This document shows, in pieces, positions 1 through 5,018 of a stretch of DNA of 5,018 nt (position 1 is its first letter; each line of letters begins with the position of its first letter). The notes under the pieces were generated by a model. It saw only the letters and a list, made by a program, of their open reading frames with translations. It was not told where the DNA came from and searched no databases. Both the position numbers and the translations under genes were made by a program. Source of the DNA: a virus (lineage: Duplodnaviria > Heunggongvirae > Uroviricota > Caudoviricetes); the IMG/VR virus record IMGVR_UViG_641736116_000018; one strand, 5' to 3'.

Positions 1-119
1 CTTGAACAGCAGGAAGGTTTTATCGTTGACGGCGTGGCCTGGAAAGTCCGTATTGATGCAGGTGTGGCAGCTCTGGATTATCGCGGTATGGTCAAATCAG
101 GCGGGACAGATTCACTCTG
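1..119 (+). CDS. 3' end of an unidentified protein-coding gene (partial; start lies upstream of the window)
   Basis: Frame 1 is open from position 1 to a TGA at 117-119 (…GFIVDGVAWKVRIDAGVAALDYRGMVKSGGTDSL*) and is followed 6 nt later by an intrinsic terminator. No open frame on the minus strand. The track ORF 2..214 is in another frame and reads through the terminator hairpin. Product not recognised. Confidence 0.3.
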
Positions 120-124
120 ACAAC

Positions 125-148
125 AAGGCGGCACCAGCCGCCTTTTTT
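125..148 (+). terminator. Rho-independent terminator (stem AAGGCGGC / GCCGCCTT, loop ACCA, then T6)
   Basis: Seen directly: aaggcggc-acca-gccgcctttttt immediately downstream of the frame-1 stop codon. Confidence 0.6.
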
Positions 149-375
149 GCGGTCCTCCAGGTGGGGTGGGCTGAACACGGGGCGGGCGGCGCGGAAAAAA
201 ACGCATTTTTTTGATTTTATCGTCATCATCATCATGTTTGTAAGTGATTGTTTTTAATTGCTTTGATGTAAAAAAGATGATGAAGAAGGTTGTTTTTTGT
301 TCGACATCTTTTAGCGTGACAGATTCTTTACAAAAAATCTGAGCTTGTTTTCTTCACCAGCGCGATGGGGGCACA

Positions 376-657
376 ATGACAGAAGCCGAAATACTGGGAT
401 TAATCCGCCGCGTCGCCGGAATCAGCCAGCAGGTTGACGAACAGGCCACGCAGCCGGACAGCATGACCGCAGATAATTATGTGCGTGTAGTGGTGGAGGT
501 GATGCGCCGTGATGGTATCCAGCTTAATGATGTGGATATGCGCAATATACGAACCAGAGTCCTTGAGTTGCTGGCATACCGTCGCCGTTCTCAACAACGG
601 AGGGAGAGCGCGAAAAATACTTACCAGTGGAAGACGCCGGAACGGCTGCGGAGGTAA
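376..657 (+). CDS. Hypothetical small protein, 93 aa, basic Arg-rich C-terminus, function unknown
   Basis: ATG at 376 preceded by a G-rich stretch (GGGGG 367-371). Balanced charged/hydrophobic composition, unlike the overlapping antisense ORF 400..672. Several rare codons (ATA, AGA, AGG, CGA, GGA). No family recognised from sequence alone. Confidence 0.4.
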   Translation: MTEAEILGLIRRVAGISQQVDEQATQPDSMTADNYVRVVVEVMRRDGIQLNDVDMRNIRTRVLELLAYRRRSQQRRESAKNTYQWKTPERLRR

Positions 658-660
658 CTT

Positions 661-690
661 GTTGATATTCACGATAACGCAAAATTGCGT
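661..690. repeat. Composite repeat copy A: GTTGATATT (661-669) + dyad ACGCAAAATTGCGT (677-690)
   Basis: Exact 9-mer GTTGATATT and exact 10-mer core GCAAAATTGC, both recurring at 919-950 and (9-mer only) 963-971. Confidence 0.5.
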
Positions 691-702
691 TGGCTGGTGG
701 GG

Positions 703-722
703 GAGTTGCAGATCTGCAACTC
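703..722. repeat. Perfect 20-bp palindrome GAGTTGCAGATCTGCAACTC
   Basis: The sequence equals its own reverse complement over 20 bp; lies 46 bp downstream of the 93-aa ORF stop. Confidence 0.6.
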
Positions 723-894
723 GATCATGAAATTACGGAAACTACCCGTAGTTTGGGTAGTAAGAGCAACACCCAGATTTTGGGGCTTACTTGCGATACC
801 CAAATAAAGGGTATCGGTGGAAGAAATATCGTTTCTCATATGTGAGTACCGAGGGCGTAATTCCACCTTCGGTTACTCGCTGAACTTAAAGCAA

Positions 895-910
895 AGCGCA
901 AAATTGCGCT
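895..910. repeat. Dyad AGCGCAAAATTGCGCT (second copy of the GCAAAATTGC core, no adjacent GTTGATATT)
   Basis: Exact 10-mer core GCAAAATTGC at 898-907 with complementary flanks. Confidence 0.5.
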
Positions 911-918
911 GATAACTG

Positions 919-950
919 GTTGATATTGTTACAGAGTGCAAAATTGCACT
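919..950. repeat. Composite repeat copy B: GTTGATATT (919-927) + dyad AGTGCAAAATTGCACT (935-950)
   Basis: Same 9-mer and same 10-mer core as copy A, with the same ~18-19 bp offset between them. Confidence 0.5.
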
Positions 951-962
951 ATGGCCTAACCC

Positions 963-992
963 GTTGATATTTCCGGCAACCTCAATTTGAGG
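963..992. repeat. Composite repeat copy C (diverged): GTTGATATT (963-971) + dyad CCTCAATTTGAGG (980-992)
   Basis: Third exact GTTGATATT followed at the same offset by a different but analogous CAATTTG-centred dyad. Confidence 0.4.
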
Positions 993-1267
993 AGATCGGA
1001 AACATCACCCTTCAAATTCTGAATGGTCATAATGACCACGCAGACCATCAAGGCAACCACAACGAACATCGTTACGGTTGGAGCTTTTACCACACTGGGG
1101 AAAAGGTACGCACCTGAATCATCATTACCGTGATCAAGGGTATGTAAAGCCCACCAGCCTGATTAACGTTTAACCGGAAAAAAATTCCGGTAGGTGGGGA
1201 TCCCCATATCGGGGAACATCCACCAGCTTCATAACGGATAGCCGGAAAATGATAACGGTTAAAGCGT

Positions 1268-1332
1268 GTTGATCTTTGTTCGTGGTTGTTCGATATTGTT
1301 CGTGAAACGGTGTAGTTAATGGTGTAGTTAAT
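1268..1332. repeat. Iteron-like direct repeats: GTTGATCTT / GTTCGATATT variants, TTGTTCGTG x2 (1276-1284, 1296-1304), GGTGTAGTTAAT x2 in perfect tandem (1309-1320, 1321-1332)
   Basis: Seen directly; the 12-bp tandem is exact, and the 9-bp repeat recurs at a 20-bp period. Confidence 0.5.
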
Positions 1333-1403
1333 TTCGCTGTTTTTGACAGGGTTGTTATTTGTAACGCAATGAAAAATAAAGACTAATCAATGAAATGTTA
1401 TAA

Positions 1404-1421
1404 ATGATAGTTATCTATCAT
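1404..1421. promoter_or_regulatory. Perfect inverted repeat ATGATAG-TTAT-CTATCAT about 85 bp upstream of the clpS start; candidate operator
   Basis: 7-bp arms exactly reverse-complementary with a 4-bp spacer, in an AT-rich stretch of the clpS 5' region. Confidence 0.3.
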
Positions 1422-1856: not shown

Positions 1857-4133
1857 ATGCTCAATCAAGAACTGGAACTCAGTTTAAATATGGCTTTCGC
1901 CAGAGCGCGCGAGCACCGTCATGAGTTTATGACCGTCGAGCACTTGTTACTGGCGCTGCTCAGTAACCCATCTGCCCGGGAGGCGCTGGAAGCGTGTTCT
2001 GTGGATTTGGTTGCGCTCCGTCAGGAACTGGAAGCCTTTATTGAACAAACCACACCCGTTCTGCCTGCCAGTGAAGAGGAGCGCGACACACAGCCGACGC
2101 TGAGTTTTCAGCGTGTACTGCAACGTGCGGTCTTCCATGTCCAGTCCTCCGGTCGCAATGAGGTTACCGGTGCAAACGTTCTGGTCGCTATCTTTAGCGA
2201 ACAGGAGTCGCAGGCGGCATATCTGTTGCGTAAACATGAAGTCAGCCGTCTCGATGTGGTGAACTTTATCTCTCATGGCACGCGTAAAGACGAGCCGACA
2301 CAGTCTTCTGATCCTGGCAGCCAGCCAAACAGCGAAGAACAAGCTGGTGGGGAGGAACGTATGGAGAATTTCACGACGAACCTGAATCAGCTTGCGCGCG
2401 TGGGCGGAATCGACCCACTGATTGGTCGTGAGAAGGAGCTGGAGCGTGCTATTCAGGTTCTCTGCCGTCGCCGTAAAAACAACCCGCTGCTAGTGGGGGA
2501 ATCTGGTGTCGGTAAAACCGCGATTGCAGAAGGTCTTGCCTGGCGAATTGTTCAGGGCGATGTGCCGGAAGTGATGGCTGACTGTACGATTTACTCTCTC
2601 GATATCGGTTCTCTGTTAGCGGGCACAAAATATCGCGGCGACTTTGAAAAACGTTTTAAAGCGTTGCTCAAGCAGCTGGAGCAGGACACTAACAGCATCC
2701 TGTTTATTGATGAGATCCACACCATTATCGGTGCGGGTGCAGCGTCTGGTGGTCAGGTTGATGCGGCTAACCTAATCAAACCGTTGCTCTCCAGCGGTAA
2801 AATTCGCGTAATTGGTTCGACAACCTATCAGGAGTTCAGCAACATTTTCGAGAAAGACCGTGCTCTGGCGCGTCGCTTCCAGAAAATTGATATTACTGAA
2901 CCGTCGATCGAAGAAACTGTTCAAATCATCAATGGCCTGAAACCGAAGTATGAAGCACACCACGACGTGCGTTATACCGCAAAAGCGGTGCGTGCGGCGG
3001 TAGAGCTGGCGGTGAAATACATTAACGATCGTCATCTGCCGGATAAAGCCATTGATGTTATCGACGAAGCGGGCGCTCGCGCACGTCTGATGCCGGTAAG
3101 CAAACGCAAGAAAACCGTTAATGTGGCGGATATTGAGTCCGTGGTGGCCCGTATTGCACGCATTCCAGAGAAGAGTGTTTCTCAGAGTGACCGCGATACC
3201 CTGAAAAACCTCGGCGATCGCCTGAAAATGCTGGTCTTCGGTCAGGATAAAGCCATTGAGGCGCTGACTGAAGCCATTAAGATGGCGCGTGCAGGTTTAG
3301 GTCACGAACATAAACCGGTCGGTTCGTTCCTGTTTGCCGGCCCTACCGGGGTCGGGAAAACAGAGGTGACGGTACAGCTTTCGAAAGCTTTGGGCATTGA
3401 GCTTCTGCGCTTTGATATGTCCGAGTATATGGAACGCCATACCGTCAGCCGTCTTATTGGTGCGCCTCCGGGATACGTTGGTTTTGATCAGGGCGGTTTG
3501 CTGACTGATGCGGTCATCAAGCATCCACATGCGGTGCTGCTGCTGGACGAAATCGAGAAAGCGCACCCGGACGTGTTCAATATTCTGTTGCAGGTGATGG
3601 ACAACGGTACGCTGACCGATAACAACGGACGCAAAGCGGACTTCCGTAACGTGGTACTGGTGATGACCACTAACGCCGGGGTACGGGAAACTGAGCGCAA
3701 ATCCATTGGTCTTATCCACCAGGATAACAGCACCGATGCGATGGAAGAGATCAAGAAGATCTTTACACCGGAATTCCGTAACCGTCTCGACAACATTATC
3801 TGGTTCGATCATCTGTCAACTGACGTGATCCATCAGGTGGTGGATAAATTCATCGTCGAGTTGCAGGTTCAGCTGGATCAGAAAGGTGTTTCTCTGGAAG
3901 TGAGCCAGGAAGCGCGTAACTGGCTGGCCGAGAAAGGTTACGACCGGGCAATGGGCGCACGTCCGATGGCGCGTGTCATCCAGGACAACCTGAAAAAACC
4001 GCTCGCCAACGAACTGCTGTTTGGTTCGCTGGTGGACGGCGGTCAGGTCACCGTCGCGCTGGATAAAGAGAAAAATGAGCTGACTTACGGATTCCAGAGT
4101 GCACAAAAGCACAAGGCGGAAGCAGCGCATTAA
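1857..4133 (+). CDS. clpA: ClpA, ATP-dependent Clp protease ATP-binding (AAA+ unfoldase) subunit, 758 aa
   Basis: ATG at 1857 with GGGGAG Shine-Dalgarno at 1845-1850. N-terminus [24 protein letters not shown]… Two Walker A motifs (GESGVGKT encoded near 2504-2527, GPTGVGKT near 3340-3363). C-terminus …QKHKAEAAH. The track ORF starting at 1842 is an in-frame TTG extension and is not used. Confidence 0.97.
2351..2363 (+). promoter_or_regulatory. clpA: Internal ribosome-binding site and in-frame ATG (codon 169) inside clpA; candidate start of the shorter ClpA65 form
   Basis: GGAGG at 2351-2355 lies 5 nt before the ATG at 2361-2363 (Met169). An internal initiation product of clpA is described for E. 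coli. Confidence 0.5.
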
Positions 4134-4158
4134 TCTGATTGTCAGGTAGGTTGGTGAA

Positions 4159-4195
4159 GTCCGTAATCTCGAAAGAGGTTACGGACTTTTTATTT
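4159..4195 (+). terminator. clpA Rho-independent terminator (about 12-bp stem GTCCGTAATCTC / GAGGTTACGGAC, GAAA loop, T-run)
   Basis: Seen directly, 26 nt downstream of the clpA stop codon. Confidence 0.75.
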
Positions 4196-4347
4196 ATGGG
4201 GTGGAACGGTGAAAACCCTATTTTTGGAGGTGAAGGTAATTTGTTGATAATTAGTGCTGCTGGAAAAGGTAAGGATAAAAAAGGGTGACAGCAGGAAAAT
4301 GAGATGGTTTTGCTTTATTAACAACGGGCTAAACGTGTAGTATTTGA
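4196..4347 (+). promoter_or_regulatory. AT-rich putative CRISPR leader
   Basis: AT-rich segment immediately upstream of the intact repeat. Its position on the side opposite the degenerate terminal repeat fits a leader. Confidence 0.4.
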
Positions 4348-4435
4348 GTTCACTGCCGTACAGGCAGCTTAGAAATTCACTGGTAACATACTCCACCCGC
4401 CCACCATGTTCACTGCCGTACAGGCAGATAAAATG
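4348..4435 (+). CRISPR. Orphan type I-F-style CRISPR mini-array: repeat (4348-4375), 32-nt spacer (4376-4407), degenerate terminal repeat (4408-4435)
   Basis: Repeat 1 GTTCACTGCCGTACAGGCAGCTTAGAAA is the canonical 28-nt I-F (Yersinia-subtype) repeat with the Cas6f hairpin GTTCACTGCCGTACAGGCAG and the CTTAGAAA handle. Repeat 2 keeps the first 20 nt and diverges over the last 8. The spacer is exactly 32 nt, the I-F length. No cas gene in the window. Confidence 0.8.
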
Positions 4436-4437
4436 CG

Positions 4438-4465
4438 AAAAAAAAGCCCGTACTTTCGTACGAGC
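4438..4465 (-). terminator. serW Rho-independent terminator (8-bp stem, GAAA tetraloop, U8 on the minus strand)
   Basis: Minus-strand RNA GCUCGUAC-GAAA-GUACGGGC-UUUUUUUU, 13 nt downstream of the tRNA 3' end. Confidence 0.7.
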
Positions 4466-4478
4466 TCTTCTTTAAATA

Positions 4479-4566
4479 TGGCGGTGAGGGGGGGATTCGA
4501 ACCCCCGATACGTTGCCGTATACACACTTTCCAGGCGTGCTCCTTCAGCCACTCGGACACCTCACC
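4479..4566 (-). tRNA. serW: tRNA-Ser, anticodon GGA, 88 nt with encoded CCA
   Basis: Reverse complement reads GGTGAGGTGTCCGAGTGGCTGAAGGAGCACGCCTGGAAAGTGTGTATACGGCAACGTATCGGGGGTTCGAATCCCCCCCTCACCGCCA: GGA anticodon loop, long variable arm, GGTTCGAATCC T-arm. Confidence 0.95.
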
Positions 4567-4609
4567 AAATTGTTTTGCTGCCAAACCTCATGGGTGGCAA
4601 CGGGGCGCT

Positions 4610-4819: not shown

Positions 4820-5018
<199 letters not shown>

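What the first reader, a model, noticed from the sequence alone, without database searches (positions are those of the whole stretch)
4348..4435. Orphan type I-F CRISPR mini-array between clpA and serW, with no cas genes
One canonical 28-nt I-F repeat, one 32-nt spacer and one terminally degenerate repeat sit behind an AT-rich leader, flanked directly by clpA and a tRNA. The clpA-infA interval is, as I recall, where I-F-type arrays are found in E. coli. An array without adjacent cas genes is either a remnant or is served by cas genes elsewhere.
Basis: partly seen in the sequence, partly recalled or inferred. Interest (0 to 1): 0.55.

Follow-up and report, generated by a model that had tools for sequence, protein, structure and literature searches.

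The report
Known E. coli orphan anti-cas CRISPR array
This is the well-described one-spacer type I-F CRISPR array that most E. coli strains keep between clpA and infA without any cas genes; its single spacer targets the I-F cas1 gene itself, a published "anti-cas" device, so the finding is real but already known.

Summary
Positions 4348-4375 hold a canonical 28-nt I-F repeat (Rfam CRISPR-DR4, 50.1 bits against a cut-off of 35). Positions 4376-4407 are a 32-nt spacer. Positions 4408-4435 are a second repeat: its first 20 nt, including the hairpin, are identical and its last 8 nt are degenerate. clpA ends 214 nt upstream and serW starts 43 nt downstream. There are no cas genes between clpA and infA.

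It matches cas1f of Escherichia ruysiae 32/32 and cas1f of I-F-positive E. coli 31/32. Both protospacers carry the I-F 5'-CC PAM. Other E. coli strains carry cas3f-matching spacers in the same slot.

This is the "CRISPR4.1-2" (or "CRISPR3") orphan array described in 2010. Reviews from the authors' laboratory report that it blocks uptake of I-F cas operons (Almendros et al. 2016). The most likely mechanism is that incoming I-F Cas proteins load the resident crRNA and destroy their own genes. Novelty: already known. Interest is low.

The parts
1857..4133 (+). clpA (upstream flanking core gene)
   Evidence: Pfam AAA_2, Clp_N and ClpB_D2-small domains; annotated clpA in near-identical E. coli loci.
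4156..4189 (+). clpA intrinsic terminator (15-bp stem followed by a T-run). It separates clpA transcription from the leader.
   Evidence: Terminator scan; inverted repeat I1.
4190..4347 (+). CRISPR leader (37% GC), homologous to the leader of the active CRISPR4.1 array of I-F-positive strains
   Evidence: GC content. The full clpA-stop-to-repeat interval (4134-4347), of which this leader is the larger part, is about 86% identical to I-F+ E. coli FDAARGOS_1284, about 80% to E. ruysiae and about 89% to K-12. The last ~60 nt before R1 are nearly invariant. No consensus sigma-70 promoter was found by the simple scan.
4348..4375 (+). Repeat 1, a canonical 28-nt I-F (CRISPR-4 type) repeat
   Evidence: Rfam RF01317, 50.1 bits against gathering 35; hairpin at 4353-4367, -8.6 kcal/mol.
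4376..4407 (+). 32-nt anti-cas1 spacer
   Evidence: 32/32 match with 5'-CC PAM in cas1f of Escherichia ruysiae (L014 1912-1943). 31/32 match with CC PAM in cas1f of E. coli FDAARGOS_1284 (L001 12001-12032). No match in phages and no significant match in plasmids.
4408..4435 (+). Terminal repeat: first 20 nt (with hairpin) intact, last 8 nt degenerate (ATAAAATG)
   Evidence: The same degenerate ATAAAATG end is present in the four cas-less E. coli arrays aligned and the others read.
4368..4427 (+). Predicted 60-nt mature crRNA if Cas6f is supplied: 8-nt 5' handle CUUAGAAA, 32-nt spacer, 20-nt 3' hairpin handle
   Evidence: Inference from the established Cas6f/Csy4 cleavage site at the 3' base of the repeat hairpin (own knowledge: Haurwitz et al. 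2010). Both handles are intact in the sequence. Not tested experimentally here.
4438..4473 (-). serW terminator hairpin. It may also stop the CRISPR transcript on the + strand.
   Evidence: Terminator scan: 16-bp stem with T-run on the - strand, and a weaker + strand hit at 4449-4462.
4479..4566 (-). tRNA-Ser (GGA), serW (downstream flank)
   Evidence: ARAGORN; Rfam tRNA, 53.8 bits.
4820..5018 (-). infA (partial; the gene runs off the window), the far boundary of the CRISPR-III locus
   Evidence: ORF 4820..5014; annotated infA in matching loci.

Best explanation
This is the orphan type I-F array of cas-F-less E. coli, called CRISPR4.1-2 in the CRISPR-III locus by Mojica's group and CRISPR3 by Touchon and Rocha. 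It encodes one crRNA, and its guide is a 32-nt piece of the I-F cas1 gene. In this cell, which lacks Cas6f and the Csy complex, the transcript does nothing. If DNA carrying a cognate I-F cas operon enters, the newly made Cas6f would cut the resident transcript into a complete 60-nt crRNA. The Csy complex would load it and recognise the CC-flanked protospacer in the incoming cas1f. Cas2-3 would then degrade the incoming element, with primed spacer acquisition reinforcing the attack. The array therefore acts as a standing vaccination against establishment of an I-F CRISPR-Cas system. What is shown here: the anatomy, the I-F identity, the absence of cas genes at the locus, the cas1f origin of the spacer with the correct PAM, the intact handles, and the population pattern. 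What is taken from the literature: constitutive expression and interference against cas-F plasmids. What is inferred: that this particular allele is active.
For: The repeat is I-F, and both crRNA handles and hairpins are intact. The spacer matches cas1f with a 5'-CC PAM: 32/32 in E. ruysiae and 31/32 in E. coli, where the one difference is a synonymous Ser codon change at spacer position 4. In other strains the same slot holds different spacers that match cas3f with one mismatch and a CC PAM, and one of these has an exact cas3f match (H151). So the anti-cas content recurs with independent spacers. Among 5426 complete E. coli genomes, cas1f is present in 241, all on chromosomes. This spacer or its protospacer is in 2579 genomes, with at most 4 genomes holding two copies. 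The spacer has no phage hit and no significant plasmid hit; the only relevant plasmid hit is a weak match to another cas1f. The leader is homologous to that of active CRISPR4.1 arrays. Literature: the anti-CRISPR hypothesis for exactly this array is in PMC2886076. Experimental interference by native orphan arrays against plasmids carrying the I-F cas set, with priming and constitutive expression, is summarised in PMC8616872 and PMC5972030, which cite Almendros et al. 2016.
Against: No consensus sigma-70 promoter was found in the leader by the simple scan, so expression rests on the literature. Against the common E. coli cas1f allele the spacer has a mismatch at position 4, inside the I-F seed as I know it, which should weaken direct interference (priming would still be expected). 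The K-12-type allele has drifted further, with 2 mismatches and a G-to-A change in the terminal-repeat stem, which suggests that selection on the array is not uniformly strong. The near-exclusion of spacer and cas1f is confounded by locus structure and by phylogeny (I-F is mostly in phylogroup B2), so it is not independent proof. The primary experimental paper could not be read here.
Confidence: 0.8

Rival explanations
1. The array is an inert scar. An ancestral I-F system acquired a self-targeting spacer against its own cas1, and this selected for deletion of the cas operon. The array is the fossil of that event and has no present function.
For: The locus looks like a deletion: the terminal repeat abuts the serW terminator, at the position where I-F+ strains have cas1f through cas6f. 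The K-12-type copies show decay, with 2 mismatches and a broken terminal hairpin. No consensus promoter was found. PMC8616872 notes that acquisition of cas-targeting spacers may have caused the loss of the genes.
Against: Spacers are easily lost by recombination between repeats, yet an anti-cas spacer persists in most lineages; this argument is made in PMC2886076. Three different anti-cas spacers together account for most of the 5426 genomes. The window's allele is still a perfect guide with intact handles. The reviews report experimental interference. The scar origin and a present anti-cas function are not mutually exclusive.
Confidence: 0.17
2. The array is a working array served in trans by I-F cas genes located elsewhere in the same genome, providing ordinary immunity.
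For: Trans use of orphan arrays by a cognate system is known in other bacteria. The genome outside this 5-kb window was not available.
Against: The only spacer would target the cas1 gene of that very system. In 5426 complete E. coli genomes all 244 cas1f places are chromosomal, and in the I-F+ loci examined the operon sits in this same interval (PMC3903273). At most 4 of 2579 genomes have both the spacer and a protospacer. The spacer matches no phage or plasmid target.
Confidence: 0.02
3. The array produces a Cas-independent small RNA that regulates a host gene, or it is a chance repeat that is not a CRISPR.
For: Orphan CRISPR loci have been proposed as regulators in other species (PMC8616872).
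Against: The Rfam match has E 6.7e-10 and no shuffle reproduced the repeat. Apart from one weak partial hit (23 nt, E = 6) in a restriction-modification gene, the spacer matches in E. coli genomes lie in arrays or in cas1f.
Confidence: 0.01

Closest known systems
[quoted passage not shown] 2016
   Same: Same locus, same repeat, same leader, same conserved degenerate terminal repeat, a single spacer matching cas1 of the I-F system, and no cas-F genes (PMC3903273, PMC2886076, PMC8616872).
   Different: Nothing of substance. The window's spacer allele (TTCACTGG...) differs by one base from the K-12 allele (TTCACAGG...), and its terminal-repeat hairpin is intact where K-12's carries a G-to-A change.
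Active I-F CRISPR-Cas locus of E. coli B2 strains (e.g. LF82, FDAARGOS_1284) and of Escherichia ruysiae
   Same: Same chromosomal site, homologous leader and identical repeat.
   Different: Those loci carry cas1f, cas3f, csy1-3 and cas6f, multi-spacer CRISPR4.1 arrays (3 and 29 spacers in the loci read here), and, in the E. coli strain read, a second array (CRISPR4.2) between serW and infA. The window has one spacer, no cas genes, and no array between serW and infA.
Single-spacer mini-arrays carried by phages and mobile elements
   Same: One spacer, one full repeat and one truncated or degenerate repeat, dependent on Cas proteins supplied in trans (PMC8616872).
   Different: This array is chromosomal, sits at a fixed core-genome site, and is inherited vertically across most of the species. 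Its target is a cas gene, not a competing mobile element.

Membership tests
Type I-F CRISPR array (Rfam CRISPR-DR4 / CRISPR-4 repeat type) | 28-nt repeat matching the I-F consensus GTTCACTGCCG[C/T]ACAGGCAGCTTAGAAA | tested here: met
   R1 scores 50.1 bits against gathering 35. R2 scores 29.7 bits, below gathering, with a degenerate 3' end.
Type I-F CRISPR array (Rfam CRISPR-DR4 / CRISPR-4 repeat type) | 5-bp stem / 5-nt loop hairpin at repeat positions 6-20 (the Cas6f recognition element) | tested here: met
   Both repeats fold as .....(((((.....)))))........ at -8.6 kcal/mol.
Type I-F CRISPR array (Rfam CRISPR-DR4 / CRISPR-4 repeat type) | 32-nt spacers and 60-nt periodicity | tested here: met
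   Start-to-start spacing is 60 nt. A periodicity of 60 for I-F is stated in PMC3506596.
Type I-F CRISPR array (Rfam CRISPR-DR4 / CRISPR-4 repeat type) | AT-rich leader upstream of the first repeat and a degenerate repeat at the distal end | tested here: met
   The leader has 37% GC and is homologous to the leader of active arrays. The degenerate repeat is distal.
Complete type I-F CRISPR-Cas system | Adjacent cas1f, cas2-3, csy1-3 and cas6f | tested here: not met
   The window runs from clpA to infA with only the array and serW between them. In I-F+ strains the operon lies in this interval. The array is therefore orphan.
E. coli orphan anti-cas CRISPR4 array | Located between clpA and infA in a strain without cas-F genes at the locus | tested here: met
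   definition in PMC3903273.
E. coli orphan anti-cas CRISPR4 array | Spacer matches an I-F cas gene next to a functional PAM (CC 5' on the spacer-sense strand, equivalent to GG on the target strand) | tested here: met
   cas1f nt 98-129: 31/32 with CC in E. coli and 32/32 with CC in E. ruysiae. PAM definition from PMC3506596.
E. coli orphan anti-cas CRISPR4 array | Array is transcribed constitutively | not testable with these tools
   Stated in PMC5972030 and PMC8616872. The simple promoter scan found no consensus + strand promoter in the leader.
E. coli orphan anti-cas CRISPR4 array | Interferes with incoming DNA that carries the I-F cas operon | not testable with these tools
   Reported for native orphan arrays by Almendros et al. 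2016, as summarised in PMC8616872. The primary paper is not held.

The most novel reading that the evidence does not exclude
The window's spacer allele is a perfect guide with the correct PAM for the cas1f allele of the sister species Escherichia ruysiae, but has a seed mismatch against the E. coli B2 allele. This is compatible with allele-specific tuning of orphan arrays: different E. coli lineages might keep guides sharp against the I-F systems they actually meet by inter-species transfer. It might also mean that mobile I-F-derived machines, such as I-F CRISPR-associated transposons or phage- and plasmid-borne I-F systems, can borrow this resident crRNA. None of this is excluded, but nothing here supports it beyond the single exact match.
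Probability: 0.1. Interest if true: 0.35.

Novelty: already known. Interest (0 to 1): 0.1.

Why it matters
The array is a textbook example of a CRISPR array that outlives its cas genes and is turned against them. It shows that bacteria can be selected to keep an adaptive immune system out. For this genome scan, the practical value is correct annotation. RefSeq annotates no CRISPR here in any orphan-array locus I inspected, and lists no annotated feature under the match for most. The array is a useful typing marker, and its spacer allele indicates the lineage. Nothing new about biology follows from this window.

Tried and rejected
1. Promoter scan of the leader: no + strand sigma-70 consensus site. 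By eye the best candidate (TAGTAT, just before R1) lacks a good -35. I did not pursue this further because expression is reported in the literature.

2. Spacer search against phages (no match) and plasmids (only weak partial hits with E of 3 or more, one of them a Vitreoscilla plasmid cas1f). An ordinary mobile-element target was therefore rejected.

3. Sub-threshold Rfam hits overlapping the region (sX4, Thr_leader, Plastid-psbl-rps4) are far below gathering, and all three overlap the tRNA gene and/or the serW terminator. I dismissed them as chance.

4. Mechanical ORFs over the array (4344-4475 +, 4190-4396 -, 4369-4584 -) were dismissed. RefSeq lists no annotated feature under the match in the great majority of listed records (one record has a 'hypothetical protein' over the leader part), and these ORFs overlap a repeat array and a tRNA.

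5. The primary paper, Almendros et al. 2016, is not held. I relied on two reviews from the same laboratory.

6. I could not identify the exact source genome. The best complete genome is O145:H28 RM12581 at 99.6% identity, and it differs by a 181-bp insertion. A direct whole-genome check for I-F cas genes in the source strain was therefore not possible. It was replaced by the population statistic.

7. Co-occurrence statistics of spacer and cas1f were considered as evidence of function. I down-weighted them because they are confounded by locus structure and phylogeny.

Full report
OBSERVATION

The window reads GTTCACTGCCGTACAGGCAGCTTAGAAA at 4348-4375. A 32-nt unique segment, TTCACTGGTAACATACTCCACCCGCCCACCAT, follows at 4376-4407. 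Then comes GTTCACTGCCGTACAGGCAGATAAAATG at 4408-4435.

- The repeat finder reports the 20-nt exact direct repeat with 60-nt spacing.
- The first copy matches Rfam CRISPR-DR4 (RF01317) on the + strand over all 28 positions at 50.1 bits (gathering 35, E 6.7e-10).
- The second copy reaches 29.7 bits, below gathering, because its last eight bases are degenerate.
- The R1 pattern found only R1 itself and occurred in none of 200 shuffles, even with up to 3 mismatches allowed.
- Both copies fold into the 5-bp stem / 5-nt loop hairpin at repeat positions 6-20.
clpS is 1506-1826 and clpA is 1857-4133 (Pfam; RefSeq annotation of matching loci).
- The clpA terminator is at 4156-4189.
- A 37% GC interval runs up to the first repeat.
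- The serW terminator is at 4438-4473 (-).
- tRNA-Ser(GGA) is at 4479-4566 (-).
- infA starts at 4820 (-).

The coordinates and the description are therefore exact, and the feature is not a chance repeat.

WHAT THE SPACER IS

A search of the 32-nt spacer against 5426 complete E. coli genomes finds it in 2579 of them. In most, the hit lies in an unannotated intergenic site, which is the same array. In a subset, the hit lies inside the gene annotated cas1f.

In strain FDAARGOS_1284 the locus reads clpA, leader, CRISPR4.1 array, cas1f, cas3f, csy1-3, cas6f, serW, second array, infA. The protospacer there is ...tttaCC|TTCGCTGGTAACATACTCCACCCGCCCACCAT|tcacc. That is a 31/32 match, with the dinucleotide CC immediately 5' on the spacer-sense strand. 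This is the I-F PAM, given as GG on the complementary strand at the leader-proximal end in PMC3506596. The protospacer is nt 98-129 of cas1f. The single difference, at spacer position 4, is a synonymous AGC/AGT serine codon change.

A scan of one genome per bacterial species found an exact 32/32 match, again preceded by CC, in Escherichia ruysiae. The match lies in a gene 95.7% identical in protein to E. coli Cas1f. That gene sits in the same clpA-array-cas1f-cas3f arrangement, behind a 29-spacer array. The spacer has no match in 50,697 phage records. In 72,556 plasmid records it gives only weak partial hits, one of which is another cas1f.

THE SAME SLOT IN OTHER STRAINS

I read the interval in seven other E. 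coli genomes.

- K-12 has the same spacer with one further change (TTCACAGG...), giving two mismatches to cas1f. It also has a G-to-A change in the stem of the terminal repeat.
- Strains AVS0093 and CREC7837 carry TTGCCGCGGATCCTGTCTGCCAATAATGACAA.
- Strains D6 and 1943 carry TCGACGGGGTGCGGTAAAACCTTTGCGAACGC.
- Both of these spacers match cas3f of the I-F operon with one mismatch and a CC PAM.
- They occur in 915 and 1801 genomes respectively, counting arrays and protospacers together, and one has an exact cas3f match.
- The cas1f gene itself is present in only 241 of 5426 genomes, always on the chromosome.
- At most four genomes have two places matching the anti-cas1 spacer.

Roughly speaking, then, three anti-cas spacers account for most of the species, and the spacer and its target almost never coexist. 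I treat that exclusion as descriptive only. The orphan configuration is by definition the cas-less state of the same locus, and I-F is concentrated in one phylogroup.

LITERATURE

All of this is published.

- PMC3903273 defines the CRISPR-III locus between clpA and infA. It holds arrays CRISPR4.1 and CRISPR4.2 flanking six cas-F genes, and a single array, 'CRISPR4.1-2', when the cas genes are absent. [quoted passage not shown]
- Touchon and Rocha (PMC2886076) found that the short array (their CRISPR3) in all E. coli lacking the Ypest (I-F) cas genes contains spacers matching Cas1, Cas3 or Csy2 of that subtype. They proposed that it acts as an 'anti-CRISPR' that prevents invasion by elements carrying a functional system. 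They also noted the conserved terminal repeat.
- Two reviews from Mojica's laboratory (PMC8616872; PMC5972030) summarise Almendros et al. 2016 (Nat Microbiol 1:16081). According to them, native orphan arrays are constitutively expressed and elicit interference against plasmids carrying the complete I-F cas set. The targeting also primes acquisition of further plasmid-derived spacers.
- I could not read the primary paper.

MECHANISM

Shown by the sequence: the one crRNA this array can encode is complete. By established knowledge of I-F processing (Haurwitz et al. 2010; my own knowledge), Cas6f cuts at the 3' base of each repeat hairpin. The mature product would therefore be the last 8 nt of repeat 1 (CUUAGAAA, 4368-4375), the 32-nt spacer, and the first 20 nt of repeat 2 (4408-4427). 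The degenerate last 8 nt of the terminal repeat are not part of it, so their decay costs nothing. In the window both handles and both hairpins are intact, unlike in K-12.

Inferred: in this cell the transcript is inert, because no Cas6f or Csy complex is encoded at the locus.

Taken from the literature: when a cognate I-F operon enters, its own proteins process and load the resident crRNA. They find the CC-flanked protospacer in the incoming cas1f and recruit Cas2-3 to destroy the element.

The window's allele should be fully effective against an E. ruysiae-type operon (perfect match). It should be weaker against the common E. coli allele, where the mismatch lies at seed position 4; priming would still be expected. 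I put 0.8 on this account.

The main rival (0.17) is that the array is only the scar of an ancestral self-targeting event that selected for loss of the cas operon. The two readings are compatible as origin and present function. Service by I-F cas genes elsewhere in the genome is very unlikely (0.02), because the only guide would hit that system's own cas1. A chance repeat or a Cas-independent RNA is negligible.

WEAK POINTS

- The simple scan finds no consensus sigma-70 promoter in the leader, although the 60 nt before the first repeat are almost invariant between orphan and active arrays.
- I could not identify the exact source genome. The best complete genome is O145:H28 RM12581 at 99.6% identity, and it differs by a 181-bp insertion next to serW. 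The absence of I-F cas genes elsewhere in the source strain is therefore inferred from the population data, not checked directly.

VERDICT

The identification as an orphan I-F mini-array is supported. The functional reading needs the addition that the spacer targets cas1f. The feature is already known in location, content and function, so interest is low. The only small addition here is that the pattern holds across 5426 complete genomes and that this spacer allele matches the E. ruysiae cas1f allele exactly.

Noticed in passing
window 1-1420: This is the right end of an integrated island of about 11 kb inserted at the 3' end of yljB, between cspD and clpS. In the near-identical O145:H28 RM12581 locus the island encodes a tyrosine integrase, an Icd-like protein, a primase, SSB and a ClpP-like prohead protease/major capsid fusion protein, which resembles a capsid-forming phage satellite (PICI-like). 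The window holds the last 39 codons of the capsid-fusion gene (2-121) and a 93-aa ORF (376-657; phrog_1561, unknown function, no Pfam hit). The att direct repeat ATA[G/A]ATGATAGTTAT[C/T]TATCA forms attR at window 1400-1420. K-12 has the empty site.
   Followed up: partly
window 647-1000 and 1268-1332: The non-coding tail of the island holds three copies of TAAC-N2-3-GTTGATATT (655, 913, 957), each followed by a small palindrome (CGCAAAATTGCG twice, TGCAAAATTGCA once). It also has GTTCG-rich repeats (1268-1305) and a tandem GGTGTAGTTAAT x2 (1309-1332). A near-copy of the tandem lies next to attL in RM12581. These are probably integrase arm, replication or packaging sites. They were not analysed.
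   Followed up: no
L010 18481-18660 (E. coli O145:H28 RM12581), corresponding to window 4478/4479: The O145 strains closest to the window carry a 181-bp insertion next to the 3' end of serW, with its central part annotated 'RtT sRNA'. It consists of that RtT-like segment plus a second copy of a ~60-nt segment (the serW terminator and the last ~20 nt of the tRNA). The window lacks this insertion.
   Followed up: partly
L003 573-600 (K-12 MG1655), equivalent to window 4408-4435: The K-12-type orphan arrays have a G-to-A change in the stem of the terminal repeat (GGCAG to GACAG) and a second spacer mismatch to cas1f. The laboratory-strain copy is therefore more decayed than the copy in the window.
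   Followed up: partly
L001 2915-3243 and 6279-7586 (E. coli FDAARGOS_1284): In this I-F-positive strain the second array (between serW and infA) uses a variant repeat 3' end (TCTTCAAA instead of CTTAGAAA), and csy1 is annotated as a pseudogene with an internal stop. The system in this strain may therefore be inactive.
   Followed up: no
L006 543-574 (E. coli EC476) and L007 541-572 (CREC7837): Some cas-less strains have a second, leader-proximal spacer. EC476's matches cas3f with 3 mismatches and a TC rather than CC flank. CREC7837's (GCACACGTCGAGCTGGTGGGGATTAATGCTGG) has no match of 6 or fewer mismatches in the FDAARGOS_1284 cas operon.
   Followed up: partly
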